A DNA stretch of 64,000 bases, from the NCBI RefSeq assembly GCF_041248615.1, contig NZ_CP158426.1; one strand, given 5' to 3'. The DNA comes from Escherichia coli. GTDB lineage: Bacteria > Pseudomonadota > Gammaproteobacteria > Enterobacterales > Enterobacteriaceae. The stretch's first letter is position 1. Each line of letters opens with the position of its first letter. Of the stretch, positions 2,086 to 63,843 are shown in pieces. Made by a program: the position numbers and the translations under genes. The notes under the pieces are model-generated. The model saw only the letters and a list, made by a program, of their open reading frames with translations. It did no database searches and was not told the origin of the DNA.

Positions 2086-5000
2086 TTAATGGAAAATGAC
2101 GTCGGGTGCGCTTAACGCCTCACTCAAATCAAACACATCAAGTTCGGCAAAAGTGACGGATTTATTCTCACGGTATACATGAAGAGAACGGAAGCTCATT
2201 AGCGCTTTGCTATCAACATTGTAGTGGTTAAAACCGGATGAAAACTTAAGGACCAGCCGGTACTCGCCCAAGTCATAGACAAATGCGTTCTCATAGCCTG
2301 ACTCCCAGCCTTTGTATCGCAATCCCATAAGTTGCCCAACGGTAGCAGATTTACCTTCCCAGCGATTCAAACTATTACTGGCTGACTCGTCAGGCGTGAG
2401 CAGCACCGTGCGGCGCGACAATTGGCGAAAAGGCGACATAATTTCGTAATCGGCAAAAAGCTGTGCAAATTCACTGCGCATTTCTGCTGTCATTTCTAAC
2501 GGGTGGGCAATGCCAATCAGAGCATCGGCAGGCAGGTCAATTGGCTCATCTTGCTCATTGCAGAACTCCCCCTCAGCGGCCACACGAAAGGCGTTGAGTA
2601 AACAACGCGGTTCATTTGCCGGATAAACACCCCATATCAATCGCTGAGTAACCAGGCGGGTAAAGGGATGATTAATAAACAGAGAATGAAAATCTGCCAG
2701 CGACCAGCGTCGGGTGGTGCGCAGGGCAGTTTCAAGACGCGGGAGCAGGTTTTTGCTCACCTGAGTAGCATCTTTTTTTAGCCCTTTTAGTCGGGCCAGT
2801 GCCTCGGGTGCTTTCAGTTGATCGTCATCGGCGCGCAACCGGGGAACGCTTTTCTGGCGAACGTTTTGCTGATCAAAGATAACCGGGTTGAGGTTTTCAT
2901 CGAAGCGAACGGTAAATTGCCGTGGACCAAAATCAAAAATCAACGCCTGCGGATCATCAAGACCCAGTGTTGGGACTAATCTGTCCGCTAACTGTTCCTG
3001 GCTTAGCCCGCGATTTTCTGCGACCACCTGAAGAAATTCCGCCGCGTTATCACGTAAGGGGCGGGATTTCGCCCGTTGCGATATATGATGCAGCTGCATC
3101 AGCGCCATATCATTATTCATCAGGGTAAGGATGTTCAGGCCACTGACAGCACGGGCAGATTTGCCTTCTTGTGGCCAGGCGAGGATCTGTGTCGTTAGAT
3201 CCCGTGTCGTGCTTTCGTCACCAAAGAGACTTAACGCCAGAAATGCCCAGTTGTCTTTTGCGGGGGCACCAGCTTGTTGCCACGCAGTGAAGAGATCCCA
3301 GGCAAAAGCTGCCAGCGTTTGTGGCTGGCAGAACGTTTTCAGTTGTTCCAGCCCGCTATAAAAACGTCCGCCTTGGGTAAAGCGCAGCATTTCGCCGATA
3401 ATTTCCAGAGCGTCATCGGTAACAGGCTGATTATTTGTGATAAGGCGCGGCCTGGACCGCATTTGCGGCTGCCAGAAATCAGGGGCTTTTGGAATGCGTG
3501 TCGGGTAAATCTCTATTGGACTCTGTTTAAGTAATTGCTCCAGGGCAGGCCATACATCTGTACGCTGCCAGCGGTTTGCCACGGTTTGCAGTAACTCGCC
3601 ATGTCCCTGTTCGTAAAGTAAACGCAGGGCAAGTAATGCAGCTTCGCTATTATCGCTGGATTTGGTGAAGACAAGAGGGATAAGTGCAGTAGCTGTATGT
3701 TCCGGCCAATGTAAAATCCACTGGCGAGCCAGATCACGCTGCGCCGCGAAACGTCGCCAGACGCGGGCAACGGGCAGGGCCAGTTCTGTTGCGCCAAAAT
3801 TTAAAATTAACGGAAATGTTTCTTTTGGACGATGTGAAAAAGCCAACAGCAGACCTGGTAGAGCATCCAATCCGAAGATACTGAGAAAATAGTCCTCACC
3901 CGCAGACAGATGCTTTTTCTCATTGATACGTAGCCAGAAAGTCAAAGCCATCTCACGCGGCAACTGCGCCAATAAATACAGGTTCCAGATACTCTTTTCC
4001 CGACGATAGCGTGAGTAGCTGTCATTTTCCCATATGTTAATGAACACTTCTACGTGACCGTTGCGAAGCGCCTGTTCTGCTAATTGAGCTTCCGGGGAGC
4101 TCCAGCCATTCATGATCTCTTCAACCCGCCCTGGGTAGTAATGCCACTGAACAATGAGTGAATTGCGTGCAGCATCCAGTTTTCCGGGGAGTATATAATT
4201 CAAAAACAGCCATACATCATCTCCAAAACCCAGCTCCTGTAATACAACTCGTCCACTTTTTTGTTCCATGCGTTCCGCAAGAGATTCCGTGCTGAAATAA
4301 CGGGCAGACTCAGTGGCGGCAAGCCTCTCTTGTTCGCCTGGTTGCCAGTAAACTTGCGGGGTTAATTCGAGCGGTGCCAAATCAAGACGTGGAGCTGTCA
4401 TTTTTTTCTTACTACGCCACGGTGGTGAAACGAGGATTTCAGGCAGATTGCTGTTATCGGTGCCATCAATAACCGGTTTGGGCGGTGCCGATAAATAACT
4501 ATTCAGCACTGCCCGGGCTTGAGTACTTAACCACGGCATCACTTCTGCTGCCAGTTGTGGCTGCGATGCCATCAGCGTTTGTAACAGCGTACGCCAGTAT
4601 TCATCACGTGCTTTTTGCTGTGCAGGCAGCTTTTTGTCTTCGATGATTGGATAACCAGGGCGCGTAGGTGGTTCTTTTAGCGCCAGCAGTTCTGCCAGTG
4701 CGGCAAGCGTCGCATGGGGGAAATTTTTACTGTATTTAGCTACACGTTGCAGGCTGGGTTTGTTTTTATCAGCAACTAACAGCAGGGTGCGGATGACCTG
4801 CGGATGGTTAATTTGTACCAGCAGACTGCCGCAATCTTCTTTATGGGCATACATTGCCAGGCGTGGAACGGCTGCCAGTCCTTGTTCGCGCAAAAGGGCA
4901 GCGCAGGCCGCGTAGCCGAAGTGGTTTTCATGCGACATGTAGCTGGCTTCCCGATCGCTAAATATATCCTGGCTCCAGTAGCGTTCGAGTTTTCTCACCG

Positions 5001-20519: not shown

Positions 20520-20599
20520 AACCAAACGACTCGGGGTGCCCTTCTGCGTGAAGGCTGAGAAATACCCGTATCACCTGATCTGGATAATGCCAGCGTAGG
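20520..20599 (+). repeat. attL: 80-bp direct repeat, a copy of the thiM TPP aptamer/thi-box lacking the 3' P1 strand and expression platform
   Basis: Base-for-base identical to 33185-33264. Flanking bases differ on both sides. Preceded by native rcnR-thiM intergenic sequence. Confidence 0.9.
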
Positions 20600-22203: not shown

Positions 22204-23106
22204 GTGGATATGTTACTACCAATACGAGTTCATAAACGATTTCTAACTTTATTTAAGACTTTGCAAATTGACGATTGCCCACCGCAATCAACTTTAAATA
22301 TTCATGTACTTAATATCGAAAGCAATGAATTTATATACTGTAAATTAGTTGAAGAATTACGTGACATAATAATTACTTATGTACATTCGAATAGAAGGCT
22401 TGAGGAGTTTAAGGAAAGTTATCCTTCGTATAGCCCTAAACCTTTTTTCGAAGCAATACAAAAATTTCGCAATTATACGTCAAACGAAGGTGAGTTAGGT
22501 GAACTGCTTTTATACGCTTTTCTTGAAACAGGACTAAATGCTCCGAAATTACTTTCCAAAATGCAATTGAAAACAGATTCTAATGATTACATTAAGGGTT
22601 CTGATGGTGTACATCTGTTAGAATTAGATGATGGTTATCAATTAATATTTGGAGAATCAAAGCTCTATGCCGATCTTTTAGAAGGTGCTCGAGAAGCGTT
22701 TGATTCTATTTTAGATTTTAAAAGTAATGGAATGGCATTTGAAAGAGGGCTGATAGATACACACGTTATAAATGAAATGGTTTCAGAAGAAGGTTATGAG
22801 AAAATAAAATCAATTCTTCTTCCTTCTTCTGGCGATGATGGGCCAGATCTTGATTTATCCTTTGGTATATTTCTTGGTTTTGAATTGAAAATAGATAGCT
22901 CACAGTTATCATTGAAAAACAAAGAGTTTAGAGATTGGGTTAATGAGTCCGTGAAACAACATGCTACTCGCGTGGTCAGTACGATACGAAGGAAAATTAT
23001 TAATCATAAATTATATGGTCACGAATTCCACATATATATAGTTCCTTTTACCGATATTGATGTTACACGAAAAAAATTAATTCATGAAATGCTAACAATT
23101 AAGTGA
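22204..23106 (+). CDS. hamA: HamA-like protein (DUF1837-type PD-(D/E)xK nuclease fold) of a Hachiman-type system
   Basis: 300 aa (GTG 22204 or ATG 22210). Motifs EGELGELLLYAFLE (~aa 95-108), GSDGVH (aa 132-137), GESK (aa 150-153). Overlaps the next gene by 4 nt. Confidence 0.7.
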   Translation: MDMLLPIRVHKRFLTLFKTLQIDDCPPQSTLNIHVLNIESNEFIYCKLVEELRDIIITYVHSNRRLEEFKESYPSYSPKPFFEAIQKFRNYTSNEGELGELLLYAFLETGLNAPKLLSKMQLKTDSNDYIKGSDGVHLLELDDGYQLIFGESKLYADLLEGAREAFDSILDFKSNGMAFERGLIDTHVINEMVSEEGYEKIKSILLPSSGDDGPDLDLSFGIFLGFELKIDSSQLSLKNKEFRDWVNESVKQHATRVVSTIRRKIINHKLYGHEFHIYIVPFTDIDVTRKKLIHEMLTIK

Positions 23107-25691
23107 ACACTATGAATGAATTAAATTCAAGTAAAAACATTCATTTGGCAGCTCGTCTTGCAGATGATGCTTTTGAAAGTGCTTATTTTAAAGAAATCAA
23201 TAAGTTTATAAGTGGTTTATACAATTACAGTTTATTTAACTGCGATTCAGATGTTAGTCTCTCCGAGAGTGATAACAATAAAATAGCACACGCTTTGCGT
23301 TTTGCAGATATATTTTCACATTCTTCAAAAGAAAATCATAGATCATGTGCATTTGAAATTATAAGTAGAATAGCCTTATTAAAAAAACATGATCCTTATT
23401 TTAAATTTATAGGTACTGCTGTTATTAATCGGCTTGGGGTTTATGCAGCAGAAAAACTCATATCAAAAGGGGTAAAATTACCCTTAGATAGAGAAGTTGA
23501 TTCTATTATTAAAAAATCAGTTCAGAAAACAGATGAAGATGGAGTATATTTCACTGATAAACAACATGAGTTATACAAACTTTTAAAAAGTAGCAAAACA
23601 ATTAGTTTTGCTGGTCCCACTTCGATGGGAAAGTCATTTGTTATTAATGCATACATTAAGGAAATAACTCTTAAAAAAGAGCTTAAAAATATAGCTTTAA
23701 TTGTTCCTACACGGGCTTTAATAAGCCAAAATGCACTTAAGTTAAAAATTGATATTGCATTGTATAAGAATGAAAGCCCTTATAAAGTTGTTACGACATC
23801 CTACATTATTAATGGTGATGAAAGTAAAAATAAAGGCTATATTTTTATTCTCACCCCAGAAAGGCTGGTTAGTCTCATAAGCACTATTCCTGGACTAATG
23901 ATTGATTATGTTTTTGTAGATGAAGCTCAAAAGTTAACAACAAAAAATGATTCGAGGAGTCTTGTTACTTATTCAGCTATAGAGCAAACAATTAGTAAAA
24001 ATCCTGAGGCAAGATTATTCTTCTCTTCACCTAATTTATCTAATCCTGAAATATTTAATATTTTGTTTGATAGAAAAGACGCTTCGGTATATAGAAATAC
24101 AGAAGGTGCAACTACTCAGAATATGTATTTTATTGATCTTTTAAATAGCAGCTTTAGCTATGTTAATACCGAGAAAAGGACGCTTGAAAAAATAGATGAG
24201 ATCTCTAATACTTACACGAATACAAATGATGTTATCTATAAATTAAATAATGGTAAAAGTAAAATAATTTATTGTGGGGGGATAGAAAGCACGCTTGAGA
24301 GAACACGTAGCTTTATCAATTATCTCAAAATTAATAAGAAAAAAAGAAAGCATTTAAATTTAGAAATATCTTCTGAGATAAGAAACTTTGTTCATGATAA
24401 CTATGAACTTGCAGAAGCCATCAACTATGGTGTTGCTTTCCACTTTGGAAACTTGCCTCAATCGATTCGAGATTTAATTGAGCATCATTTCAAAATAGGA
24501 AATATTGACTATCTATTCTGTACATCAACCCTACTTGAGGGAGTCAATTTACCTGCAAGATCCGTATTTATTCTTACGCATAAAAAAGGCCCCAGTCCAT
24601 TAGAGTCGGTTGATTTTTGGAATCTGGCTGGGAGAGCTGGGCGATTATCTATGGAATTGTCAGGGGATATTTTTTGTATTAGGGATGATAATAAGCTTTG
24701 GAATAAAAAAGCTGTTGATAATATCCTTCTGTCTGACAAAAATAACATTTCATTAAAGCCAAGCTTCTATATTGAAGACGAAAAAAGATTGAACGATTTA
24801 CACCATATAATTACGACTGGTAAAACAGGGAATATTAAAAATGCTGAGTTCCTTAGAACTTTAGGAGATATGATAAGAATAGACACTCTGAGGGATTCTA
24901 AAGAACTTCCTCTTATTAGTTATTTCCAAAGCAGTGGAAAATCAGAAATTTTGTTAAGTGCAGAAAAAAGCACTGAAAATATTACCATGCCAATGAATAT
25001 CCTTTTGGCAAATAGTCATATTGCGATTGATTCGCAGTATCATGCTTTTAAAAAAATAAAAAGCCTTACAGTTAAGGAACTGAAATTATCATGGCAGCCT
25101 ACATACGAAGAAATTAAAGAAAAATTGAATTTGATATTCGATATTTACCAAGTTGAAAAGTTTGCAACAGGTAGAGAACGTCTTTATTTAAATTCAATTC
25201 CATATTATGCAGTATTACTGTTTCAATGGATTCGTGGAAATAGTCTACAGGAAATTATCTCGGGGGCAATTGCTTATAGAAAGAACAAAAGTATATATAT
25301 TAAAAATACACCTGTTCTTTTTGACAGCGAAAACCCAGCTCATTTAACTGCATTAGTTAATGAAACTATAAAAGACATTGAGTTGCGTGTAGGTTACCAG
25401 TTACAAAATTATTTTTCACATTACTGTCAGCTTCTGAATTATGTGTTACAAGGAAATCCAGGGGCAAACTGGTCTCAGTTCATTGAGTTTGGCTCTAATG
25501 AGCCAATAGTATGGCACCTACAAATGATGGGCTTTTCAAGGGATAGTGCAGTTTTTCTCAAGAAGAATTTTTCAAAACATCTTAAACTTGATAATGAAAT
25601 GAATAAACTCATCATAATGGATAAGGAACTGATCAAGCGTTCTTTCAAAAAAGATGGACTACATTACTTAGAAATCCAATCGTTATTATAA
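23103..25691 (+). CDS. hamB: HamB-like SF2 helicase of a Hachiman-type system
   Basis: 862 aa (GTG 23103 overlapping the hamA TGA, or ATG 23112). Walker A GPTSMGKS (nt 23613-23636), motif II DEAQ (nt 23919-23930), motif VI-like AGRAGR. Confidence 0.75.
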   Translation: MNTMNELNSSKNIHLAARLADDAFESAYFKEINKFISGLYNYSLFNCDSDVSLSESDNNKIAHALRFADIFSHSSKENHRSCAFEIISRIALLKKHDPYFKFIGTAVINRLGVYAAEKLISKGVKLPLDREVDSIIKKSVQKTDEDGVYFTDKQHELYKLLKSSKTISFAGPTSMGKSFVINAYIKEITLKKELKNIALIVPTRALISQNALKLKIDIALYKNESPYKVVTTSYIINGDESKNKGYIFILTPERLVSLISTIPGLMIDYVFVDEAQKLTTKNDSRSLVTYSAIEQTISKNPEARLFFSSPNLSNPEIFNILFDRKDASVYRNTEGATTQNMYFIDLLNSSFSYVNTEKRTLEKIDEISNTYTNTNDVIYKLNNGKSKIIYCGGIESTLERTRSFINYLKINKKKRKHLNLEISSEIRNFVHDNYELAEAINYGVAFHFGNLPQSIRDLIEHHFKIGNIDYLFCTSTLLEGVNLPARSVFILTHKKGPSPLESVDFWNLAGRAGRLSMELSGDIFCIRDDNKLWNKKAVDNILLSDKNNISLKPSFYIEDEKRLNDLHHIITTGKTGNIKNAEFLRTLGDMIRIDTLRDSKELPLISYFQSSGKSEILLSAEKSTENITMPMNILLANSHIAIDSQYHAFKKIKSLTVKELKLSWQPTYEEIKEKLNLIFDIYQVEKFATGRERLYLNSIPYYAVLLFQWIRGNSLQEIISGAIAYRKNKSIYIKNTPVLFDSENPAHLTALVNETIKDIELRVGYQLQNYFSHYCQLLNYVLQGNPGANWSQFIEFGSNEPIVWHLQMMGFSRDSAVFLKKNFSKHLKLDNEMNKLIIMDKELIKRSFKKDGLHYLEIQSLL

Positions 25692-27125: not shown

Positions 27126-27485
27126 TCATTCAGAACGATCAAGTACCATATATGCTGGCTGACACATGCTGCCCCGCTCCTGTAGCCAGTAGTAATCAAG
27201 ATCGGCAACACGCACGTCCAATCCAGAATCTACACGGTTGATCTGTAACCGTAGCCCTACAGTATCCTTGTACGATAAACCAGATTTAACATTGTATTTG
27301 TACTTAACACCGTTTTCCTGTTCAAACTGTTTAAGGAAAGGCGTCATTTGTTTCTGAATTTCTTTCAAACAAATAACCTCATTATCAATAGCAAAGGGGG
27401 GTTCTGTTTTTCCATCAGGTACAGCAGCCTGTAAATGAAAGGAAGTACTCAACAATAACAGCATTGCAACAGAAGTCTTTTTCAT
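27126..27485 (-). CDS. Small exported protein of unknown function
   Basis: 119 aa. Sec signal peptide MKKTSVAMLLLLSTSFHLQA|AVP. Lies 43 nt downstream of the preceding gene on the same strand. Confidence 0.7.
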   Translation of the reverse strand: MKKTSVAMLLLLSTSFHLQAAVPDGKTEPPFAIDNEVICLKEIQKQMTPFLKQFEQENGVKYKYNVKSGLSYKDTVGLRLQINRVDSGLDVRVADLDYYWLQERGSMCQPAYMVLDRSE

Positions 27486-27528: not shown

Positions 27529-28569
27529 TTAATAACAATATTTTATATTTCCTTCGGGTTTTCTCATGCATTTAATTCCTTCAGGAATATAATCAGTTAC
27601 GGGAGCAGGTCTGGCATCAGGTCTTGAAAGACGATTGGATATAGAAGACAACAGACTGAAAACACACTCATTAAATGATTTTTGATATTTATTTTTTTCA
27701 TAAAAGTACTGCATGGTGATTTTATCTCTTTCGTATTGCAATTCTTTGCCAAGCTGAATCCTATCCATATCAATTCCATTTCTCATAGCATTAAATCTTT
27801 CGTTCAATAAATTAAATTGAGATTTATTCCATTCATTTAAAGGAAATAAAGAATTGTTAAGCCTTTGCCTACAATTAGATTGCTCGATAGCTGACATGTA
27901 TTCTTTCATACTAACGCCAATATCTAAGTATGTGAGTTGTCCAGCAGTTCTATCAACTGAGTTATTAGGGTAAGATTTAATTTCAGTAAGTATTGACTCT
28001 GTTAATACTGCATTTTCTTCTAAATCTTTGCTAATAGTTATTTGAGCTTGTTCTCTTTTATCCTTATCAAATATTGAAATGTATTTCTTTACTATATCCT
28101 GATTAGCTTTCTCGGCTGCTACTAACGCATCTTGAACCTTCTTTTCCGCCGCTTTAACTCGTTGTTCTTCTACAAATTTCGCGTAGTCATCAGTATTTGT
28201 AATGTGATTTTCACGAGCGATAGAAAACTCTTTACTATCTTTAAAACCAAGTTTTTGTGCTCTGGCTCCATCGCTTGAAGATCGGGCAGAACTTGCCACG
28301 AAAGCGAGCACAATGATCAGTACAGGAACCGTATAATTATTAACGAGTTTATAGGGTAAGAACTTCGCTTTAAGCGTACCATAACCCAAAACAGCCCAGC
28401 CTATCGCGGCAGTACTTGCCAGTAGCTGGCACAATCCAGCGACGGAAAGCATGATTACCGACCAGAAGCCTGTACCGACTGCGAAAAGATCACCAAATTT
28501 CTCCATTGACGCAAGGAATAAAAACACTCCCCAAATGCCATAAAATCCTATTTTCAAATATTTACTCAC
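27529..28569 (-). CDS. Inner-membrane protein (about 3 N-terminal TM helices plus ~240-aa soluble/coiled-coil-like domain), unknown function
   Basis: 346 aa, GTG start with AAAGGA upstream. Hydrophobic segments IGFYGIWGVFLFLASM, FWSVIMLSVAGLCQLLASTAAIGWAVLGYG and VPVLIIVLAFVASSA. Confidence 0.7.
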   Translation of the reverse strand: MSKYLKIGFYGIWGVFLFLASMEKFGDLFAVGTGFWSVIMLSVAGLCQLLASTAAIGWAVLGYGTLKAKFLPYKLVNNYTVPVLIIVLAFVASSARSSSDGARAQKLGFKDSKEFSIARENHITNTDDYAKFVEEQRVKAAEKKVQDALVAAEKANQDIVKKYISIFDKDKREQAQITISKDLEENAVLTESILTEIKSYPNNSVDRTAGQLTYLDIGVSMKEYMSAIEQSNCRQRLNNSLFPLNEWNKSQFNLLNERFNAMRNGIDMDRIQLGKELQYERDKITMQYFYEKNKYQKSFNECVFSLLSSISNRLSRPDARPAPVTDYIPEGIKCMRKPEGNIKYCY

Positions 28570-28789
28570 CGCAATTATCCTTTAATAATTTTCCAAATCG
28601 ATGGTTCGTTCTATTTGTATTATCGACAATAATTCGTTTGCCTTTAGGTAGATCCCTTAAAAAGGAATCCCCCCAAAATTTATAGATTAGCAGTTGTACC
28701 ACTCTCACTGTTTTGTCACTCCCATTATCTTCTCTCAGGTCAAAAGTACGGACTTAAAGCCGTCCGTGTTCAGGTGCTCAAGAGTAGCA

Positions 28790-28900
28790 CGCATATCAAT
28801 AAATGATCGATAAAAACGATCAATTAATGGCTTATTGATCGCTATAACCTATCAATGACTATTAATTCAATACAAATCAATAGGTAAAATCGATCAAGAG
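28790..28900. repeat. Iteron-like cluster of (G)ATCAAT/GATCGA motifs with several GATC sites
   Basis: ATCAAT at 28795, 28851 and 28876; CGATCAAT at 28817; TTGATCG at 28835; GATCGA at 28805; CGATCAAG at 28891. All lie within an ORF-free tract. Confidence 0.45.
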
Positions 28901-29552
28901 GATTCGTCATCCATGAAAGGGGTTATGTATCTGATTTCAATACAGGGAGTATTAGCGATACCATCACGCAAACGCTCTTAAAGCGTAGCTACGGCGTTTT
29001 GTAGGGTTTTTGGTCATTCATGTGTGTCAGTAATGAACATCGCATTCAGGGGCTTCCTGTGCGTTTTGTCCGAAACACCATCATGAAGGGGGACAGATCG
29101 GATCGGGGTCGCTTCGCTCTGGTCAGTACTGGATAGTTCTTTTCCAGTAACTGAAACCGCAGATACCCCACTAAGTACACAAAGGAATTATTTGTAGAAT
29201 AAGTAATGAAATAACAGTCAGTTATGTACTTACTGACAGAACTAAAAACGCGATTAGGTTCGCTCTGTCAGTGACCGAAGGGAACGCAACAGTAGAATCT
29301 AATCCAGCGAACAGTACACGCAAGCGGGTGCTGTTTAATTGTTTTATCTATGTAAACAATGGGATAGCTATCAAGTACTCACTGCGTGAGCACTCTCACT
29401 AACTACCCGAAACAGTTCGCTTGCTTCGCCGCTCCTACTTTCAGGTAGTTAATTCGCTTTCGCTCGTTGTGATGTCCGAAATTTATTACCTATAGTATTA
29501 TAAGGTATTATTTTCCGGACATTTATGTATTTTTATGATGGTGTTCTGGACA

Positions 29553-31028
29553 TCATTTTTTGCTTTTTTGTACTTCCTTTTCGTATTTGTTCCACATAGC
29601 CTTTTGCTCTTCGGGACTGAGTGCTGTATTACCACTGGCAAGAAACACCTTGAACGCTTCTAACTCAAGCCCTGGGTTGCGGCTTTTCCAGCGGCGAAAA
29701 CGCTTAGCGTGATTATCATCAAGAGTGAAACGCTTTTGCTTATTCTTTGAACCTTGCGGCCTGCCTCTCGACCTCTGCTCATCATCAATACCGATATCTA
29801 TATACTCAATATTATCTGTAAGAGATCTGGCTTGCCATTCATCAAAAACATAAACAGTCTGTGTTTCAGTACTGTCAAAATCCCTTGAAATTCCTCGTAG
29901 TACGAACTGGTGTAAACTTTCGTACTCCCTCGCAACATGTATCGCCTCGCCGTCAATCTCAAAGAACAATTCGCACTGTTTAGCCTCTGTTTCAGAGGGA
30001 CGCATACAAGCGAGCCAGACGCACGTGAGCAAGTGTTGGTACTGGTTAAACCCTCTGGCATCCGGGCTTATCTCTGTGCCGTTTTTGAGGCTCTGAGAAT
30101 CGCTTTTGTTCTTCGTCCAGTAGAAATCCTGTCCCTCAAGTTTTTTATCAATAAATGAGTATATTTTTTGTACTTTATCAGGGTTATTAGTCTTCCATGT
30201 CTTCGATAGTTTTTGATTTTTTGAGAAGTAATAAACCTTTAATCTGTCTTTGAGAGCTGTTTTTCGTGTCAGTAATCCTCCAAGTTCAGTACTTTCAAAG
30301 AGTTCTTTATTGCCTTTATAGATCAATGAATTTTCGAAATTAGCTCCGAGAAAGGTGATTGATACGTCTTTGTACTTACTGAGATCTTTCCATGCGGTAA
30401 TATTAAGCTGTTCCTTTTTCGCATCGGTAAAGTACTCATTATTCATGATGAACATATCATTTTCGTTAATTGCTGGTAGCTGGTTCAAAATATTCTTCAG
30501 TACTTCCCCTTGTATTTCTGGTTTTCTTTCTGCCGCAATATACATATTTTTATCATCTAATGTCAGTACATTGTGTATTAATGAATTAAGAATTGTATTT
30601 TTTATATTAGTATCACCCTCATTAATATTCTGAAAAGAGTGAAAATTAGTAACGTCGTCAATATAAATATTACAGTCAGATAACAATTCAGGAGGAATTT
30701 TGAAAAACGTTTTATCTGTTATGAGTAATGTTTTATTACTTCCAGATGAAAGAAAGTTAATAACTGAATTAATAACACTTTCATCTTTTGGTACTGTATC
30801 TGTAATTATATACTCGCAATTATTGATTTGCTTTGCTGTCTGCTTAATAAGTTCTTGAGTGTTCTGTACTAAAATATATTTTTCAGTACTGTTATTGATT
30901 ATATTGCATATAGCAGTAGTTTTACCTGAACCACAAGGGGCGGAGACATACTTAAATTTATTATAAATAGGTGTGGGATTAATCATTTGTACACGCTCCA
31001 TATTGATTAATGTAGAAAGGTCAGCCAT
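29553..31028 (-). CDS. SF2-helicase-like P-loop NTPase with a C-terminal AT-hook/basic tail
   Basis: 491 aa. Walker A APCGSGKTT, Walker B-like NIYIDDV, motif VI-like HQFVLRGISR, and an AT-hook core SRGRPQGSKNK near the C-terminus. Confidence 0.7.
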   Translation of the reverse strand: MADLSTLINMERVQMINPTPIYNKFKYVSAPCGSGKTTAICNIINNSTEKYILVQNTQELIKQTAKQINNCEYIITDTVPKDESVINSVINFLSSGSNKTLLITDKTFFKIPPELLSDCNIYIDDVTNFHSFQNINEGDTNIKNTILNSLIHNVLTLDDKNMYIAAERKPEIQGEVLKNILNQLPAINENDMFIMNNEYFTDAKKEQLNITAWKDLSKYKDVSITFLGANFENSLIYKGNKELFESTELGGLLTRKTALKDRLKVYYFSKNQKLSKTWKTNNPDKVQKIYSFIDKKLEGQDFYWTKNKSDSQSLKNGTEISPDARGFNQYQHLLTCVWLACMRPSETEAKQCELFFEIDGEAIHVAREYESLHQFVLRGISRDFDSTETQTVYVFDEWQARSLTDNIEYIDIGIDDEQRSRGRPQGSKNKQKRFTLDDNHAKRFRRWKSRNPGLELEAFKVFLASGNTALSPEEQKAMWNKYEKEVQKSKK

Positions 31029-31370
31029 TCCAGTGTCTGGCCTTTCGTTGTTTTAGTTATTAGTCTTTTTGAGTTGCGACAACTGCAAGAGAATGTTTAT
31101 AAACAAGTGAAATAAGCAGTTTTACCGCCTCAAAAGCTACAGTCAGTTTCGTAATTATTTTCGAAAGCATCGTAAATTTCACTTCGCTATCTTCTATGCA
31201 AAAATTAGCAGCCTGAGGTATTTAATGATTGAGATGTGGCCTGTTGATAAGAGGGTTTGTATTGCTTGTTCTGCTCTTTGTTAATTTGTGACTTATTCCT
31301 TTCACAATGATCGGCTATGTTTGATAACTCTGTTAGGAAATCACCTATGGCTACCATATTGGATTTGCCC

Positions 31371-32276
31371 CTATATTTCCAGACACCTGTTATCACTTAA
31401 CCCATTACTGGCCTGCTGCCGCAGATATTCCCGTGGCGAGCGATAACCCAGTGCACTATGCGGATGCCATTCGTTATAATGCTCGAACGCCTCTGCAAGG
31501 TTCTTTGCTGCCGTTAACCCGTCTGGTTTAGGCATGATACTGATGTAGTCACGCTTTATCGTTTTCACGAAGCTCTCTGCTATGCCGTTACTCTCCGGAC
31601 TCCGCACCGCCGTGTTCTTCGGTTCAAGCCCCAATATCCGGGCAAACTGCCGTGTTTCATTAGCCCGGTAGCATGAACCATTATCCGTCAGCCACTCTAC
31701 TGGAGACGCCGGAAGCTCGTTGCCGAAGCGGCGTTCCACCGCTCCCAGCATGACGTCCTGTACTGTTTCACTGTCGAAGCCGCCCGTAGTGACTGCCCAG
31801 TGCAGTGCCTCACGGTCACAGCAGTCCAGCGCGAACGTGACTCGCAGTTTTTCTCCGTTATCACAGCGGAACTCGAACCCGTCAGAGCACCATCGTTGAT
31901 TGCTTTCTTTCACGGCCACTTTGCCAGTATGTGCCCGTTTCGATGGCGGTACAGCGGTTTTTCGCTCAAGCAACAGCGCATTCTGGCGCATGATCCGGTA
32001 AACACGTTTGGCATTGATCGCAGGCGTACCATCAAGTTCGGCCTGTCTGCGAAGCAGCGCCCATACCCGACGATAACCATACGTGGGCAGCTCTCCGATA
32101 ACATGGTGTATACGGAGAAGCACATCCGTATCATCTGAGTGACGGCTGCGGCGACCATCTTTCCAGTCATCGGTTCGTCTGAGAATTACGTGCAACTGCG
32201 CACGCGACACCCGGAGACAACGGCTGACTAAGCTTACTCCCCATCCCCGGGCAATAAGGGCGCGTGCGCTATCCAC
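31371..32276 (-). CDS. insD: IS2 transposase OrfB (InsD, DDE domain)
   Basis: 301-aa ORF overlapping orfA in the -1 frame, as in IS3-family elements. Confidence 0.92.
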
Positions 32277-32599
32277 TTTTTTGCACGCCCGTATTCAACG
32301 GCTTCTTTAAGGAGTTCATTTTCCATCGTTTTTTTGCCGAGCAGGCGCTGGAGTTCTTTAATCTGCTTCATGGCAGCAGCAAGTTCAGAGGCAGGAACGA
32401 CCTGCTCTCCTGCGGCCACAGCAGTAAGACTTCCCTCCTGGTATTGCTTGCGCCAGAGAAATAACTGGCTGGCTGCCACACCGTGTTGCCGGGCAACAAG
32501 GGAGACCTTCATTCCCGGTTCAAAACTCTGCTGAACAATAGCGATCTTTTCCTGTGTAGTACGCCGTCTGCGTTTCTCCGGTCCTAAGACATCAATCAT
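32234..32599 (-). CDS. insC: IS2 OrfA (InsC, HTH)
   Basis: Start at [22 protein letters not shown] (ATG 32599), 121 aa. Confidence 0.9.
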
Positions 32600-33184
32600 C
32601 TGCTCTCCAATGACTAGTCTAAAAACTAGTATTAAGACTATCACTTATTTAAGTGATATTGGTTGTCTGGAGATTCATGGGGCCAGTCTACATATAATCA
32701 TGTTCATCTTCTAATTCTTTAAATTTTAATAGAGAAATCTCTTCATAATATTCTTTCATTTTCATATAAATCACCTTTTATTTTTTTGTTGTTAACACAG
32801 GTTTTTTTCTGCACTACACATTATAGCACATAGAATTAATTCGTTTCATTTTCTGTCAATGAAATAGAGTAAAGATAAATGCTTTTATAAAGCACTTATC
32901 ACATCCGTTGCCTTGCTATATATAAAAAGTTCTCCAAACTATACTGGTGTATATTTTCCCCATCAGATACAGTTGTTTTTAAACATTACAATGTTGGATT
33001 CTTGGTTCCAAATAAATCGAGCAACTATTAGTGTTTCAAAATGAAGTTGGGAGCTATTCCTTAATTCGTATGAGGTACAAAATGGGGTACTCGGTGGGGT
33101 ACAGCGTGTATAAGTGACGTCACCACGGGTAAACTTGCATCGGCGAGCAACTTAACCTAAGCTGACAAAAATTAAGAGAAATGT

Positions 33185-33264
33185 AACCAAACGACTCGGG
33201 GTGCCCTTCTGCGTGAAGGCTGAGAAATACCCGTATCACCTGATCTGGATAATGCCAGCGTAGG
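33185..33264 (+). repeat. attR: 80-bp direct repeat (thi-box aptamer copy contiguous with the native thiM expression platform)
   Basis: Identical to 20520-20599. Confidence 0.9.
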
Positions 33265-49453: not shown

Positions 49454-49540
49454 AAAAAATAAGCCCGTGTAAGGGAGATTACACAGGCTAAGGAGGTGGT
49501 TCCTGGTACAGCTAGCATTTTATGGGTTATGTTTTTCAGC
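49454..49540 (-). ncRNA. cyaR: CyaR (RyeE) Hfq-dependent sRNA
   Basis: The complement reads GCTGAAAAACATAACCCATAAAATGCTAGCTGTACCAGGAACCACCTCCTTAGCCTGTGTAATCTCCCTTACACGGGCTTATTTTTT. This matches my recollection of CyaR, including the terminator. Confidence 0.88.
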
Positions 49541-49574
49541 GAAACGGATGATAACCTTAATAAATGCAGCTGTA

Positions 49575-62859: not shown

Positions 62860-62999
62860 ACGGGAAAGCCCCTCCCGAGGAAGGGGCCTTAAATAAGGAA
62901 AGGGTCATGATGAAGCTACTCATCATCGTGGTGCTCTTAGTGATTAGCTACCCAGCATACTAAGACTACCAGGGCGGGGGAAACCCCGCTCTACCCTCA
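62860..62999 (-). ncRNA. sibB: Sib antitoxin sRNA, unit 1 (ends approximate)
   Basis: Minus-strand promoter TTGACA (63034-29), 17 nt, TACTTT (63011-06). Terminator GCCCCUUCCUCGGGAGGGGC plus a U-rich tail. Fully antisense to ibs. Confidence 0.65.
62907..62963 (+). CDS. ibsB: Type I toxin Ibs (18 aa, MMKLLIIVVLLVISYPAY)
   Basis: ATGATG start with AAGGAAAGGG upstream and a TAA stop. Matches the IbsB sequence as I remember it. Confidence 0.8.
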   Translation: MMKLLIIVVLLVISYPAY

Positions 63000-63187
63000 C
63001 TCCTGAAAGTATGCCTTCACGATAAGATTGTCAATCTGCAGGCTTTGCAGTCTGCGATCCTGCCAGCAAATATTCTTTGCGAGACGTTACGCAATAATCA
63101 CACTGGAAACTATTTTATCCGCAAGTCAGCGATAGACTGCATACAGGGCGAAAGGAGGTAAGCCGACGATTTCAGCGGGACGCTGAA

Positions 63188-63327
63188 ACGGGAAAGCCCC
63201 TCCCGAGGAAGGGGCCTTAAATAAGGAAAGGGTCATGATGAAGATACTCATCATCGTGGTGCTCTTAGTGATTAGCTACCCAGCATACTAAGACTACCAG
63301 GGCGGGGGAAACCCCGCTCTACCCTCA
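63188..63327 (-). ncRNA. Sib antitoxin sRNA, unit 2 (ends approximate)
   Basis: Same promoter and terminator elements as unit 1, shifted by 328 bp. Confidence 0.6.
63235..63291 (+). CDS. ibsB: Type I toxin Ibs (18 aa, MMKILIIVVLLVISYPAY)
   Basis: Second repeat unit. Differs from unit 1 by a single L4I change. Confidence 0.78.
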   Translation: MMKILIIVVLLVISYPAY

Positions 63328-63515
63328 CTCCTGAAAGTATGCCTTCACGATAAGATTGTCAATCCGCAGGCTTTGCAGTCTGCGATCCTGCCAGCAAATA
63401 TTCTTTGCGAGTCGTTACGCAATAATCACAGAGGAAACTATTTTGGTCACGCGTTAGCGATAGACTGCATTCAGGGCGAAAGGAGGTAAGCCGACGATTT
63501 CAGCGGGACGCTGAA

Positions 63516-63662
63516 ACGGGAAACCCTCTCCCGGAGAAGAGGGCTTTTAATAAGGAAAGGGTTATGATGAAGCACGTCATCATACTGGAGATACTCTTAG
63601 TGATTAGCTTCCAGGCTTACTAAGAACACCAGGGGGAGGGAGAAACCTCTCCCTAACCCTCA
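63516..63662 (-). ncRNA. sibA: Sib antitoxin sRNA, unit 3 (ends approximate)
   Basis: Promoter TTGACA (63697-92), 17 nt, TAATTT (63674-69). Terminator CCCUCUUCUCCGGGAGAGGG plus a U-rich tail. Confidence 0.6.
63564..63623 (+). CDS. ibsA: Type I toxin IbsA-like (19 aa, MMKHVIILEILLVISFQAY)
   Basis: Third repeat unit. Carries a Glu codon GAG at 63588-90 within the hydrophobic core. Confidence 0.7.
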   Translation: MMKHVIILEILLVISFQAY

Positions 63663-63843
63663 CTCCTGAAATTATGTCACTCCGCCCTTAGTGTCAATCG
63701 ACGGCTCTCCGTTCTTGCGAGGCGAATAGCAAAATTTTCTGCGCCGCCGGGCCTAATTCTGAAAGTTTCTTCGTTTGCTCTTATTTCATTATTGCAATCG
63801 GTATGATACCGGGCCTCAATAATTCTCTAAGAAAGGATTTCTT

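What the first reader, a model, noticed from the sequence alone, without database searches (positions are those of the whole stretch)
28570..29552. About 1 kb without ORFs of 60 aa or more: GATC/iteron-like cluster plus GC-richer repeat and hairpin tract
Seen: no ORF of 60 aa or more on any frame between the two minus-strand genes.
- 28790-28900 contains at least eight (G)ATCAAT/GATCGA/TTGATCG motifs, including four GATC sites.
- 29040-29460 is visibly less AT-rich than neighbouring island genes.
- It carries direct repeats TTCGCTCTG(G)TCAGT at 29113 and 29259, TTCGCT-type repeats at 29416 and 29453, and CACTCTCACT at 28700 and 29390.
- Several hairpins are present: ACGGAC/GTCCGT at 28748-28767, GTCAGT/ACTGAC at 29218-29237, and an imperfect ~50-nt palindrome at 29472-29522 just after the stop of the helicase-like gene.

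Inference: this could be a replication origin or iteron region for the adjacent helicase-like AT-hook protein (a satellite/PICI-like lifestyle), or a long structured ncRNA co-transcribed with it.
Basis: partly seen in the sequence, partly recalled or inferred. Interest (0 to 1): 0.55.

Follow-up and report, generated by a model that had tools for sequence, protein, structure and literature searches.

The report
Structured noncoding partner of island helicase
The 1-kb gene-free stretch holds two separate conserved elements: a roughly 490-base hairpin-rich block that always follows an uncharacterised helicase gene in a widespread family of small defence-carrying islands (most likely its replication origin, possibly a large RNA), and an array of three operator-like palindromes that belongs to the next operon.

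Summary
The gap lies in a 12.7-kb island inserted in the thiM TPP riboswitch of E. coli, with Hachiman as cargo.

**Two independent modules**
- **Module A (29067-29552, minus sense).** It starts at the stop codon of a 491-aa SF2 helicase-like gene. It is bounded by 21-nt inverted repeats and contains a 50-nt AT-rich palindrome and several long hairpins.
- A gene-free stretch of at least 500 nt follows every fetched homologue with downstream sequence, down to 33% protein identity. The arms and palindrome are recognisable in most of them.
- It is 80-92% identical in DNA where the protein is only 54-56% identical.
- Its helices keep pairing through wholesale sequence change between groups.
- It is noncoding, has no Rfam match, and has no similarity to plasmids or phages.
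- **Module B (28803-28897).** Three 21-bp TTGATCG-N7-CGATCAA palindromes that travel with the downstream membrane-protein operon. They do not travel with the helicase or with the resolvase type.

**Interpretation**
- Best reading (about 0.4): module A is the cis-acting replication origin, possibly with single-strand priming hairpins, of a helicase-driven excised island.
- Main rival (about 0.27): a large structured RNA.
- Strand-specific folding could not be established, so the DNA-versus-RNA question stays open.

The parts
29067..29552 (-). Module A: conserved, noncoding, hairpin-rich block that begins at the stop codon of the helicase-like gene
   Evidence: nhmmer finds it directly after the gene in all 29 loci of the main and L011 groups. 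It is 80-92% identical in DNA where the protein is 54-56% identical. Folding z is -8.2 and -5.3 as RNA and -6.5 and -5.1 as DNA. There is no codon periodicity and no conserved ORF. There is no Rfam hit.
29532..29552 (-). 5' arm of the long-range inverted repeat (TGTCCAGAACACCATCATAAA)
   Evidence: (I3). The arms stay complementary with different sequence in distant groups L034, L042, L043 and L035.
29067..29087 (-). 3' arm of the long-range inverted repeat (TTCATGATGGTGTTTCGGACA)
   Evidence: (I3).
29472..29522 (.). 50-nt palindrome HP1: conserved AT-rich centre TACCTTATAAT..TATAGGTA, with a variable base that changes on both sides together (ATGTCCG / CGGACAT)
   Evidence: I5. The base is ATGTCAC in L011, ATGTCCC in L033, ATGTACC in L034 and L037, GGGGGG in L043 and ATGYGGAA in L042, while the centre is kept.
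29398..29454 (-). Helix 3: 17-18-bp stem closing a conserved GGAGCGGCGAAGCAAGCGAAC loop
   Evidence: RNAalifold. The covariance model aligns the L041 and L035 versions with 19-21 of 49 pairs of the domain changed on both sides and still paired.
29372..29397 (-). Helix 5: 10-bp hairpin GAGAGTGCTCAC..GTGAGTACTT
   Evidence: There is a compensatory U-A to A-U change in L013.
29102..29107 (-). CCCGAT, predicted unpaired, kept in most groups just before the 3' arm
   Evidence: Invariant in alignment A2. Present in L011, L033, L034, L035, L037 and L040. Altered in L041 and not seen in L043.
29111..29463 (-). Three mini-hairpin motifs on the minus strand: GCGAAGC (plus-strand starts 29111 and 29423) and GCGAAAGC (29456)
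   Evidence: 3 copies in 486 nt, against 16 such motifs in the whole window on both strands (about 0.06 expected). The same motifs are enriched on the gene-sense strand in L036, L038, L039 and L042, but are absent from the L011, L033, L034, L040 and L043 groups.
29553..31028 (-). 491-aa SF2 helicase-like protein with a C-terminal GRP (AT-hook-like) basic tail; the genetic partner of module A
28803..28897 (.). Module B: three 21-bp palindromes of the type TTGATCG-N7-CGATCAA (28803-28823, 28835-28855, 28877-28897) carrying the four GATC sites
   Evidence: (D1, I1, I4). It co-occurs with the p346/p119-type operon, not with the helicase or with the resolvase type.
27529..28569 (-). 346-aa membrane protein gene, first gene of the operon served by module B (followed by the 119-aa gene at 27126-27485)
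   Evidence: No family hit in Pfam, PADLOC, PHROGs or NCBIfam.
29047..29069 (+). Plus-strand terminator-like hairpin CAGGGGCTTCCTG followed by TGCGTTTTGT, at the outer edge of module A
   Evidence: Conserved in relatives.

Best explanation
The gap holds two independent cis-acting modules.

**Module A (29067-29552).** This is the cognate cis site of the adjacent SF2 helicase-like protein. It is most likely the replication origin used after the island excises as a circle.
- Proposed mechanism (inferred, not shown): the integrase excises the island.
- The helicase-like protein, through its basic GRP tail or with a partner, engages the paired arms (CACCA/TGGTG core) and the AT-rich 50-bp palindrome, where the duplex opens.
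- The many internal hairpins, including GCGAAAGC/GCGAAGC mini-hairpins of the kind found at primase-dependent single-strand initiation sites, then form on the unwound strand and serve priming.
- The small resolvase at the far end of the island would resolve multimers.

**Module B (28803-28897).** This is a three-operator control region for the downstream membrane-protein operon.

**Shown:** the anatomy, the linkage to the helicase gene, the conservation, the noncoding nature, and the preservation of pairing.
**Inferred:** replication, the binding partner, and priming.
For: 1. **Obligate linkage.**
   - The block lies directly after the gene in all 29 alignable loci.
   - A gene-free stretch of at least 500 nt follows the gene in twelve more distant loci (33-50% protein identity). 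An AT-rich TACCTATA-type palindrome is recognisable in all twelve. Complementary arms are clear in most but not in L040, L038 or L039.
   - The linkage holds whatever the integrase (tyrosine or large serine), the insertion site (thiM, ffs, ybhA, yggS) or the cargo.
2. **The protein is a helicase of a replicative type.**
   - It has an SF2 fold, with XPD and DinG as best matches, and intact ATPase motifs.
   - A distant family member carries an N-terminal Prim-Pol domain, E = 1.3e-17.
   - There is a weak N-terminal match to the CyRepA1 plasmid replication protein.
3. **Position and orientation are not fixed.**
   - L038, L039 and L042 have an intrinsic terminator between gene and block, and the palindrome sits at the other end.
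   - Part of the L043 interior is inverted relative to L040 (109 nt, 81% identity, E = 5e-20).
   - This fits an autonomous DNA site better than a 3' UTR.
4. **Arm motifs behave like binding sites.**
   - L038 and L039 have two direct copies of GGAATTCACT(A) at the near end. L038 also shows an inverted copy at the far end.
   - In several groups the same short motif recurs in both arms and both halves of the palindrome. Examples are TGTCCGRAA in the window and TGTCACAA in L011.
5. **Pairing is symmetric between strands.**
   - Folding excess is present on both strands in all 12 groups tested, z -2 to -10.6, with no consistent strand preference.
   - Pairs shared by sense and antisense predictions show no G.U versus A.C bias.
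6. **Mini-hairpin motifs.** GCGAAAGC/GCGAAGC are enriched about 50-fold in the block. GCGAAAGC forms hairpin I of the phage G4 complementary-strand origin, and RSF1010 ssiA has a related mini-hairpin (PMC13037366).
7. **Precedent.** Origins immediately 3' of the initiator-helicase gene are the rule in SaPI/PICI satellites (my own knowledge). A single-strand origin exists in an integrative element, ICEBs1 (PMC4595007).
8. **Module B.** It is present only where a p346/p119-type operon follows. It is 81-92% conserved next to two resolvase types that are only 31% identical to each other.
Against: - No replication has been shown.
- The helicase family was not found in 72,556 plasmids.
- No circular contig was found. 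The recurrent 6.5-kb contigs end in IS1, not in an overlap.
- Classical tandem iterons are absent.
- SF2 XPD/DinG-like helicases are not known replication initiators.
- No nickase or primase is evident in this island.
- The block is more conserved than the protein that supposedly reads it (80-92% against 54-56%). This includes the protein's C-terminal tail, which is only 40-47% identical. That fits a target read by conserved host machinery, or an RNA, better than a private protein-DNA pair.
- At least four distinct helices keep pairing through sequence turnover. This is the classic signature of a folded single strand, so RNA remains possible.
- In the main group the minus strand folds better: -170 against -162 kcal/mol, consensus -78.6 against -68.5.
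Confidence: 0.4

Rival explanations
1. Module A encodes a large (about 450-490 nt) structured noncoding RNA. It would be made as the 3' extension of the helicase mRNA or from its own promoter, and it would work with the SF2 helicase-like protein or with host machinery.
For: - Sequence conservation exceeds that of the neighbouring gene.
- Folding is very strong, z = -8.2 on the gene-sense strand.
- In the main group there is no terminator between the stop codon and the block.
- Stems change while loops stay. Helix 3 is fully re-written between the main and L011 groups, but its GGA.CG..GC..AGC.AG.GAAC loop is kept.
- On 23 sequences, 98.1% of cells are paired. Five pairs show double changes, against 2.6 in shuffles (11 of 500 shuffles reach this).
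- Several G.U pairs are fixed on the sense strand in helices 3 and 5.
- The block is noncoding.
Against: - No Rfam family matches in the window or in 13 divergent loci.
- The structure conservation index is only 0.48 at 85% mean identity, against 0.40 for the antisense strand.
- The G.U over A.C bias is reproduced by the antisense-derived structure and vanishes in pairs common to both predictions.
- There is no consistent strand preference across groups.
- A terminator lies between gene and block in L038, L039 and L042, and there is a partial inversion in L043.
- There is no convincing conserved sigma-70 promoter reading into the block, and no terminator at its end.
- L036 has a perfect 25-bp inverted repeat, which looks like a DNA-level feature.
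Confidence: 0.27
2. Module A is a transfer or packaging site, such as an oriT mimic, a single-strand origin for DNA received by conjugation, or a pac/cos-like site. It would let a helper plasmid, ICE or phage move the island, with the helicase assisting unwinding.
For: - The islands lack any recognisable transfer or packaging genes, yet they are clearly mobile across genera and insertion sites.
- High conservation independent of the island's own protein is expected for a site that must match a helper.
- The block is rich in hairpins.
- Islands carrying only an oriT are reported to be common (bioRxiv 10.64898/2026.01.13.699239).
Against: - blastn at about 65-70% sensitivity finds nothing similar in 72,556 plasmids or 50,697 phage records.
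- In 5,426 E. coli genomes, every match inspected lies in an island of this family, and none of the listed matches is on a plasmid.
- The strict coupling to a helicase gene is not explained by this reading.
Confidence: 0.1
3. Module A is an invertible DNA switch. The 21-nt inverted repeats would be crossover sites for the island's small serine recombinase, flipping a promoter or terminator between the helicase gene and the downstream operon.
For: - Inverted repeats bracket a segment of about 450 bp.
- A resolvase/invertase-family gene is present in most islands.
- Some distant relatives have the interior, or the position of the palindrome, in the other orientation.
Against: - All 49 E. coli genomes with a full-length match, and all 29 alignable loci, have the same orientation.
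- The block is also present where no resolvase was found within the flanks.
- It is equally conserved next to two resolvase types that are 31% identical.
Confidence: 0.03
4. The GATC/ATCAAT cluster (module B) is itself the origin (iterons plus Dam/SeqA sites) or the res site of the resolvase, rather than an operator array.
For: - There are three regularly built 21-bp repeats with four GATC sites in 95 bp.
- Three subsites is the layout of Tn3-type res sites (my own knowledge).
Against: - It is absent from helicase-bearing loci L005, L009, L010 and L029, and present in helicase-less L004 and L014.
- It does not vary with the resolvase type.
- It sits upstream of the start of the operon it travels with. 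That start is 230-330 bp away in the window and nearer in relatives whose gene begins earlier.
Confidence: 0.08

Closest known systems
rep-ori modules of phage satellites (SaPI/PICI; P4 alpha with ori/crr)
   Same: A small integrative island encodes its own helicase-type replication protein. The cis site lies immediately 3' of that gene. The module is retained while integrase and cargo vary.
   Different: - Those initiators are SF3/primase-helicases, and their origins are tandem short iterons flanking an AT-rich tract.
- Here the protein has an SF2 (XPD/DinG-like) fold, tandem iterons are absent, and the site is a roughly 490-bp set of nested inverted repeats.
- No capsid, packaging or helper-interference genes are present.
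- Replication is untested.
RSF1010 (IncQ) oriV with ssiA/ssiB, and primase-dependent G4-type single-strand initiation sites
   Same: Function depends on hairpins that form on the unwound strand. Stable GCGAAAGC or CCGAAGG mini-hairpins lie at the priming site (PMC13037366). A large inverted repeat organises the origin.
   Different: - RSF1010 has 20-bp tandem iterons and dedicated RepA, RepB' and RepC proteins.
- Mini-hairpin motifs occur only in some groups of this family.
- Strand specificity is not established here.
Single-strand origin (sso) of ICEBs1 and of rolling-circle plasmids
   Same: A structured noncoding element inside an integrative element that serves replication after excision (PMC4595007).
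   Different: - ICEBs1 replicates from oriT by its relaxase with the host helicase PcrA.
- This island has no relaxase or HUH nuclease.
- Only some relatives have an HNH gene next to the helicase gene.
ColE1 RNA II pre-primer and other large structured bacterial RNAs (ROOL, GOLLD, OLE)
   Same: Several hundred nucleotides with multiple conserved stem-loops, associated with a mobile element.
   Different: - No Rfam match.
- No defined promoter or terminator.
- The structure conservation index is low.
- Orientation relative to the neighbouring gene is not fixed.
Stem-loop origin downstream of the primase-helicase gene orf904 of plasmid pRN1 (recalled from memory, not checked here)
   Same: The origin consists of a large stem-loop directly downstream of the gene for a Prim-Pol/helicase replication protein. 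One distant member of this helicase family is fused to Prim-Pol.
   Different: It is an archaeal plasmid with an SF3 helicase, and it is much smaller (about 100 nt).

Membership tests
Iteron-type origin next to its initiator gene (plasmid / SaPI-PICI style) | Lies next to the gene of the initiator or helicase | tested here: met
   The block starts at the stop codon of the gene and follows it in all 29 alignable loci. A gene-free gap of at least 500 nt follows in the distant loci.
Iteron-type origin next to its initiator gene (plasmid / SaPI-PICI style) | Three or more tandem direct repeats (iterons) of about 6-22 bp | tested here: not met
   The repeat finder gives only two-copy short direct repeats inside 29040-29552. 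The recurring motifs are inverted and dispersed. L038 and L039 have two direct copies of an arm motif.
Iteron-type origin next to its initiator gene (plasmid / SaPI-PICI style) | AT-rich unwinding region | tested here: inconclusive
   The 50-nt palindrome has a conserved AT-rich centre of about 30 nt, but melting was not tested.
Iteron-type origin next to its initiator gene (plasmid / SaPI-PICI style) | Supports autonomous replication with its initiator | not testable with these tools
   Indirect searches were negative: no plasmid carries the gene and no circular contig was found.
Curated structured RNA family (Rfam 15) | Match to a covariance model at or near its gathering score | tested here: not met
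   No hit in the gap at gathering score. Only chance-level hits appear at E up to 10. There are no hits in 13 divergent loci.
Conserved structured RNA (general criteria) | Base pairs kept through compensatory changes | tested here: met
   Within the main group the signal is weak but above shuffles: 5 pairs against 2.6, and 9 cells against 3.3. Between the main and L011 groups, 19-21 of 49 pairs changed on both sides and stayed paired. That alignment was fitted to the model. Pairing of this kind is equally expected of folded ssDNA.
Conserved structured RNA (general criteria) | Strand-specific signal (G.U tolerated, A.C avoided) and defined transcript ends | tested here: inconclusive
   The bias is mirrored by the antisense-derived structure and is absent in shared pairs. 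There is no consistent strand preference across groups. No conserved promoter or terminator was found.
Invertible DNA switch | Both orientations occur among close relatives | tested here: not met
   0 of 49 full-length E. coli matches and 0 of 29 alignable loci are inverted.
oriT or cos/pac mimic of a helper element | Sequence similarity to the helper's own site | tested here: not met
   No blastn match to PLSDB plasmids or INPHARED phages. ICEs of other species were not searched.
Primase-dependent single-strand initiation site (G4 type) | Stable GCGNAGC or GCGAAAGC mini-hairpin(s) on the template strand | tested here: met
   Three copies lie on the minus strand of the block, against about 0.06 expected. 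They are not universal in the family.
Primase-dependent single-strand initiation site (G4 type) | Primer synthesis on the SSB-coated single strand | not testable with these tools
   Needs an in-vitro priming assay.
SF2 helicase (for the 491-aa partner protein) | Two RecA-like lobes with Walker A, Walker B and motif VI arginines | tested here: met
Type III restriction enzyme Res subunit (the RefSeq name of the protein) | Full ResIII helicase plus endonuclease architecture, with an adjacent Mod methyltransferase | tested here: not met
   Only residues 26-75 match PF04851, at 23.9 bits. No methyltransferase gene is in the island.
Tn3-type res site (for the 28803-28897 repeats) | Co-variation with, and proximity to, the resolvase gene | tested here: not met
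   The repeats are 81-92% conserved beside resolvases that are only 31% identical. They lie 2-7 kb from the resolvase gene, with cargo in between.

The most novel reading that the evidence does not exclude
Module A could be a previously undescribed class of large (about 450-500 nt) folded single-strand element, either an RNA or a strand-specific ssDNA structure. It would be the obligate partner of an uncharacterised SF2 helicase family. Together they would form the core engine of a new, widespread family of minimal satellite-like islands that ferry defence systems among Enterobacterales.
Probability: 0.25. Interest if true: 0.8.

Novelty: new variant of a known kind. Interest (0 to 1): 0.6.

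Why it matters
**The open question.** Many E. coli defence islands carry only an integrase and have no known way to replicate or move. This was flagged in the pan-genome survey PMC10121019.

**What this work adds.** It defines a two-part core, an SF2 helicase-like gene plus a roughly 490-nt structured noncoding block. The core is shared by such islands:
- across at least a dozen genera;
- with tyrosine or serine integrases;
- at several insertion sites;
- with cargo including Hachiman, a STAND ATPase, a SMODS/SLATT pair, reverse transcriptases and others.

**What follows if the block is the origin.**
- These islands are replicative, satellite-like elements.
- Their induction and helper become directly testable.

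**What follows if it is an RNA.** It would be one of the larger unclassified bacterial RNAs.

**Annotation.** The result also corrects a misleading annotation ('type III restriction endonuclease subunit R').

Tried and rejected
- **Known RNA family.** Rejected. There are no Rfam hits in the window or in divergent relatives.
- **Decayed gene or small protein.** Rejected.
  - Variable columns show no codon periodicity (101/89/96).
  - The 33- and 43-aa ORFs are frameshifted or stopped in relatives.
  - The 22-aa ORF at 28914-28982 is broken in 6 of 18 relatives.
- **Helper-site mimicry.** Neither the block nor the protein is similar to any plasmid. The block matches no phage; the protein has only one remote match (22.7% identity) in Agrobacterium phage Atu_ph07.
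- **Episomal form in assemblies.** The recurrent 6.5-kb contigs are not circular and end in IS1.
- **Active inversion.** Not seen in 49 genomes or 29 loci.
- **Protein-site co-divergence.** The C-terminal tail is no more conserved than the rest of the protein. The test was uninformative.
- **Strand of folding.**
  - My first count (235 G.U against 17 A.C cells) looked decisive.
  - It turned out to be an artefact of deriving the structure from the same strand.
  - MFE and z-scores give no consistent strand across groups.
- **Alignment too divergent.** A broader protein alignment, A3, was too divergent for locus retrieval.
- **Pfam family not held locally.** PF27199, listed for some homologues, is not in the local Pfam copy.
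Full report
**Context**

The window is E. coli chromosome, 100% identical over the region to strain KE55. The finding lies in a low-GC island bounded by a perfect 80-bp direct repeat at 20520-20599 and 33185-33264. That repeat is a duplicated part of the thiM TPP riboswitch.

The island carries these features in order:
- a tyrosine integrase;
- the Hachiman pair HamA/HamB;
- a small serine recombinase (resolvase family);
- a 119-aa and a 346-aa protein with no family match;
- the 983-bp gap;
- a 491-aa 'DEAD/DEAH helicase / type III restriction R' protein;
- a small ORF;
- in this strain only, an IS insertion.

**Observation**

The details:
- The four GATC sites compare with about 0.4 expected.
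- The ATCAAT copies are parts of three 21-bp palindromes, TTGATCG-N7-CGATCAA, at 28803, 28835 and 28877.
- That tract folds far better than shuffled sequence on both strands. As RNA, z is -8.2 and -5.3. As DNA, z is -6.5 and -5.1.

**The gap is two modules**

Fifty-four E. coli genomes match by megablast and 84 by blastn. The matches lie in islands at other sites (ffs, ybhA, yggS), with other integrases and other cargo.

Alignment with loci from other genera shows two blocks of conservation with separate histories.
- The part next to the helicase gene (module A, about 29040-29552) is present wherever the gene is.
- The part holding the GATC palindromes (module B) is missing in L005, L009, L010 and L029.
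- Module B is present in L004 and L014, which lack the helicase.
- A presence/absence table shows that module B follows the p346/p119-type operon. It is 81-92% conserved beside two resolvase types that are only 31% identical.

Module B is therefore best read as the control region of that operon: three palindromic operators upstream of its start. It is not a set of iterons for the helicase, and it is not a res site.

**Module A is a constant partner of the helicase-like gene**

The protein has homologues throughout Enterobacterales and 846 representatives at 50% clustering.
- An HMM of the block finds it immediately after the gene in all 29 loci of the main and L011 groups.
- In twelve more distant loci (33-50% protein identity) there is always a gene-free stretch of at least 500 nt.
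- Most of these twelve keep the same parts:
  - long-range complementary arms around a CACCA/TGGTG core, not evident in L040, L038 or L039;
  - a roughly 50-nt palindrome with a TACCTATA-type AT-rich centre, degenerate in some, and a variable base;
  - internal hairpins;
  - a CCCGAT motif near the far arm.
- The block is 80-92% identical in DNA where the protein is only 54-56% identical. The protein's C-terminal tail shares that low identity.
- The block is noncoding: there is no codon periodicity and no conserved ORF.
- It matches no Rfam family.
- It matches nothing in plasmid or phage collections.

**Is pairing selected?**

Within the main group (23 sequences, 85% mean identity) the evidence is modest.
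- 98.1% of cells are paired.
- Five pairs show double changes, against 2.6 in shuffles.
- The structure conservation index is 0.48.

Between groups the evidence is strong.
- The arms, the base of the palindrome and helix 3 differ in sequence but remain complementary.
- A covariance model of the helix-3/helix-5 domain recovers the L041, L035 and L037 versions (E = 3e-5 to 2e-3).
- In those versions, 15-21 of 49 pairs changed on both sides and only 5-7 are broken, while the helix-3 loop sequence is kept. That alignment is model-fitted, which favours the structure.

Several different helices behaving this way is hard to explain by duplex binding sites alone. It indicates that a folded single strand or extruded hairpins matter.

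**DNA or RNA?**

My first strand test (many G.U, few A.C) was an artefact.
- The antisense-derived structure shows the same bias.
- Pairs common to both predictions are balanced, at 10 against 6 cells.
- Across 12 groups both strands fold far better than shuffles, and neither strand is consistently better.

Evidence against a simple 3'-UTR RNA:
- L038, L039 and L042 have an intrinsic terminator between gene and block, with the palindrome at the other end.
- Part of the L043 interior is inverted.
- L037 is a recombinant of two block types.
- L038 and L039 duplicate an arm motif in direct orientation, as binding sites do.

Evidence for a replication role:
- The partner protein has an SF2 fold nearest XPD and DinG, with intact ATPase motifs.
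- One distant member of the family is fused to Prim-Pol.
- The N-terminus weakly resembles the CyRepA1 plasmid replication protein.
- GCGAAAGC/GCGAAGC mini-hairpin motifs, known from the phage G4 complementary-strand origin and related to RSF1010 ssiA (PMC13037366), are about 50-fold enriched on the gene-sense strand in this and four other groups. They are absent from the rest.

**Verdict**

The best-supported reading (about 0.4) is that module A is the cis-acting replication origin of the excised island. It would be read by or with the adjacent helicase, with hairpins that may serve single-strand priming.

Rival readings:
- A large structured RNA is a serious rival (about 0.27).
- A transfer or packaging site is about 0.1.
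- An invertible switch is about 0.03, because 0 of 49 genomes and 0 of 29 loci are inverted.

Nothing here shows replication.
- No plasmid carries the gene.
- The recurrent 6.5-kb contigs are IS1-bounded rather than circular.

The islands match the 'integrase-only defence islands with unclear mobilisation' noted in the E. coli pan-genome survey (PMC10121019). The helicase-plus-block core gives that class a testable engine.

Noticed in passing
window 20520-20599 and 33185-33264: A perfect 80-bp direct repeat, a duplicated part of the thiM TPP riboswitch, marks the ends of the 12.7-kb island. The integrase targets a riboswitch and rebuilds it.
   Followed up: partly
window about 31360-32688: A 1.33-kb IS3-family element (ORFs of 136 and 301 aa) is inserted between the helicase operon and the island end. 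It is absent from the otherwise identical strain KE55.
   Followed up: partly
window 22204-25691: The island cargo is a complete Hachiman system: HamA (DUF1837) and the HamB helicase.
   Followed up: yes
window 28914-28982 (+): A 22-aa hydrophobic ORF (MKGVMYLISIQGVLAIPSRKRS) with an AAGAGGA box upstream, reminiscent of a type I toxin. It is broken in 6 of 18 relatives, so it is probably not a gene.
   Followed up: yes
window about 28976-29002 and 29047-29069 (+): Two plus-strand hairpins, each followed by GCGTTTTGT, look like terminators facing the block from the operator side. They are conserved in relatives. No plus-strand gene is known there.
   Followed up: no
window 29467-29496 (+): A promoter-like site (TTGTGA, 18-nt spacer, TATAGT) lies inside the 50-nt palindrome and points into the 3' end of the helicase gene. 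A similar arrangement can be read in the second sequence group. It could give an antisense RNA.
   Followed up: no
L007 5777-5895 (also L027 3784-3871): The Raoultella-type islands carry a second, partial copy of the helix-3/helix-5 domain upstream of the helicase gene (46 bits with the covariance model).
   Followed up: no
L036 about 4600-4690 (positions 233-320 of the downstream stretch): A perfect 25-bp inverted repeat (AATTCCATTTAGTAGGAAATCGGCA ... TGCCGATTTCCTACTAAATGGAATT) lies inside that relative's block.
   Followed up: no
L036 2415-2963, L040 2429-2941: In some distant relatives an HNH (NUMOD4 + HNH_3) gene sits directly upstream of the helicase-like gene. It is a candidate nickase for the module.
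   Followed up: no
window 29553-31028 (-): The RefSeq names 'type III restriction endonuclease subunit R' and 'DEAD/DEAH box helicase' rest on a P-loop match of about 50 aa. There is no Mod partner, so the restriction name is probably wrong.
   Followed up: yes
window 62892-63697, 49457-49542, 1258-1331: Three tandem Sib antitoxin RNAs, CyaR and an OrzO-P RNA lie elsewhere in the window. These are ordinary E. coli features.
   Followed up: no
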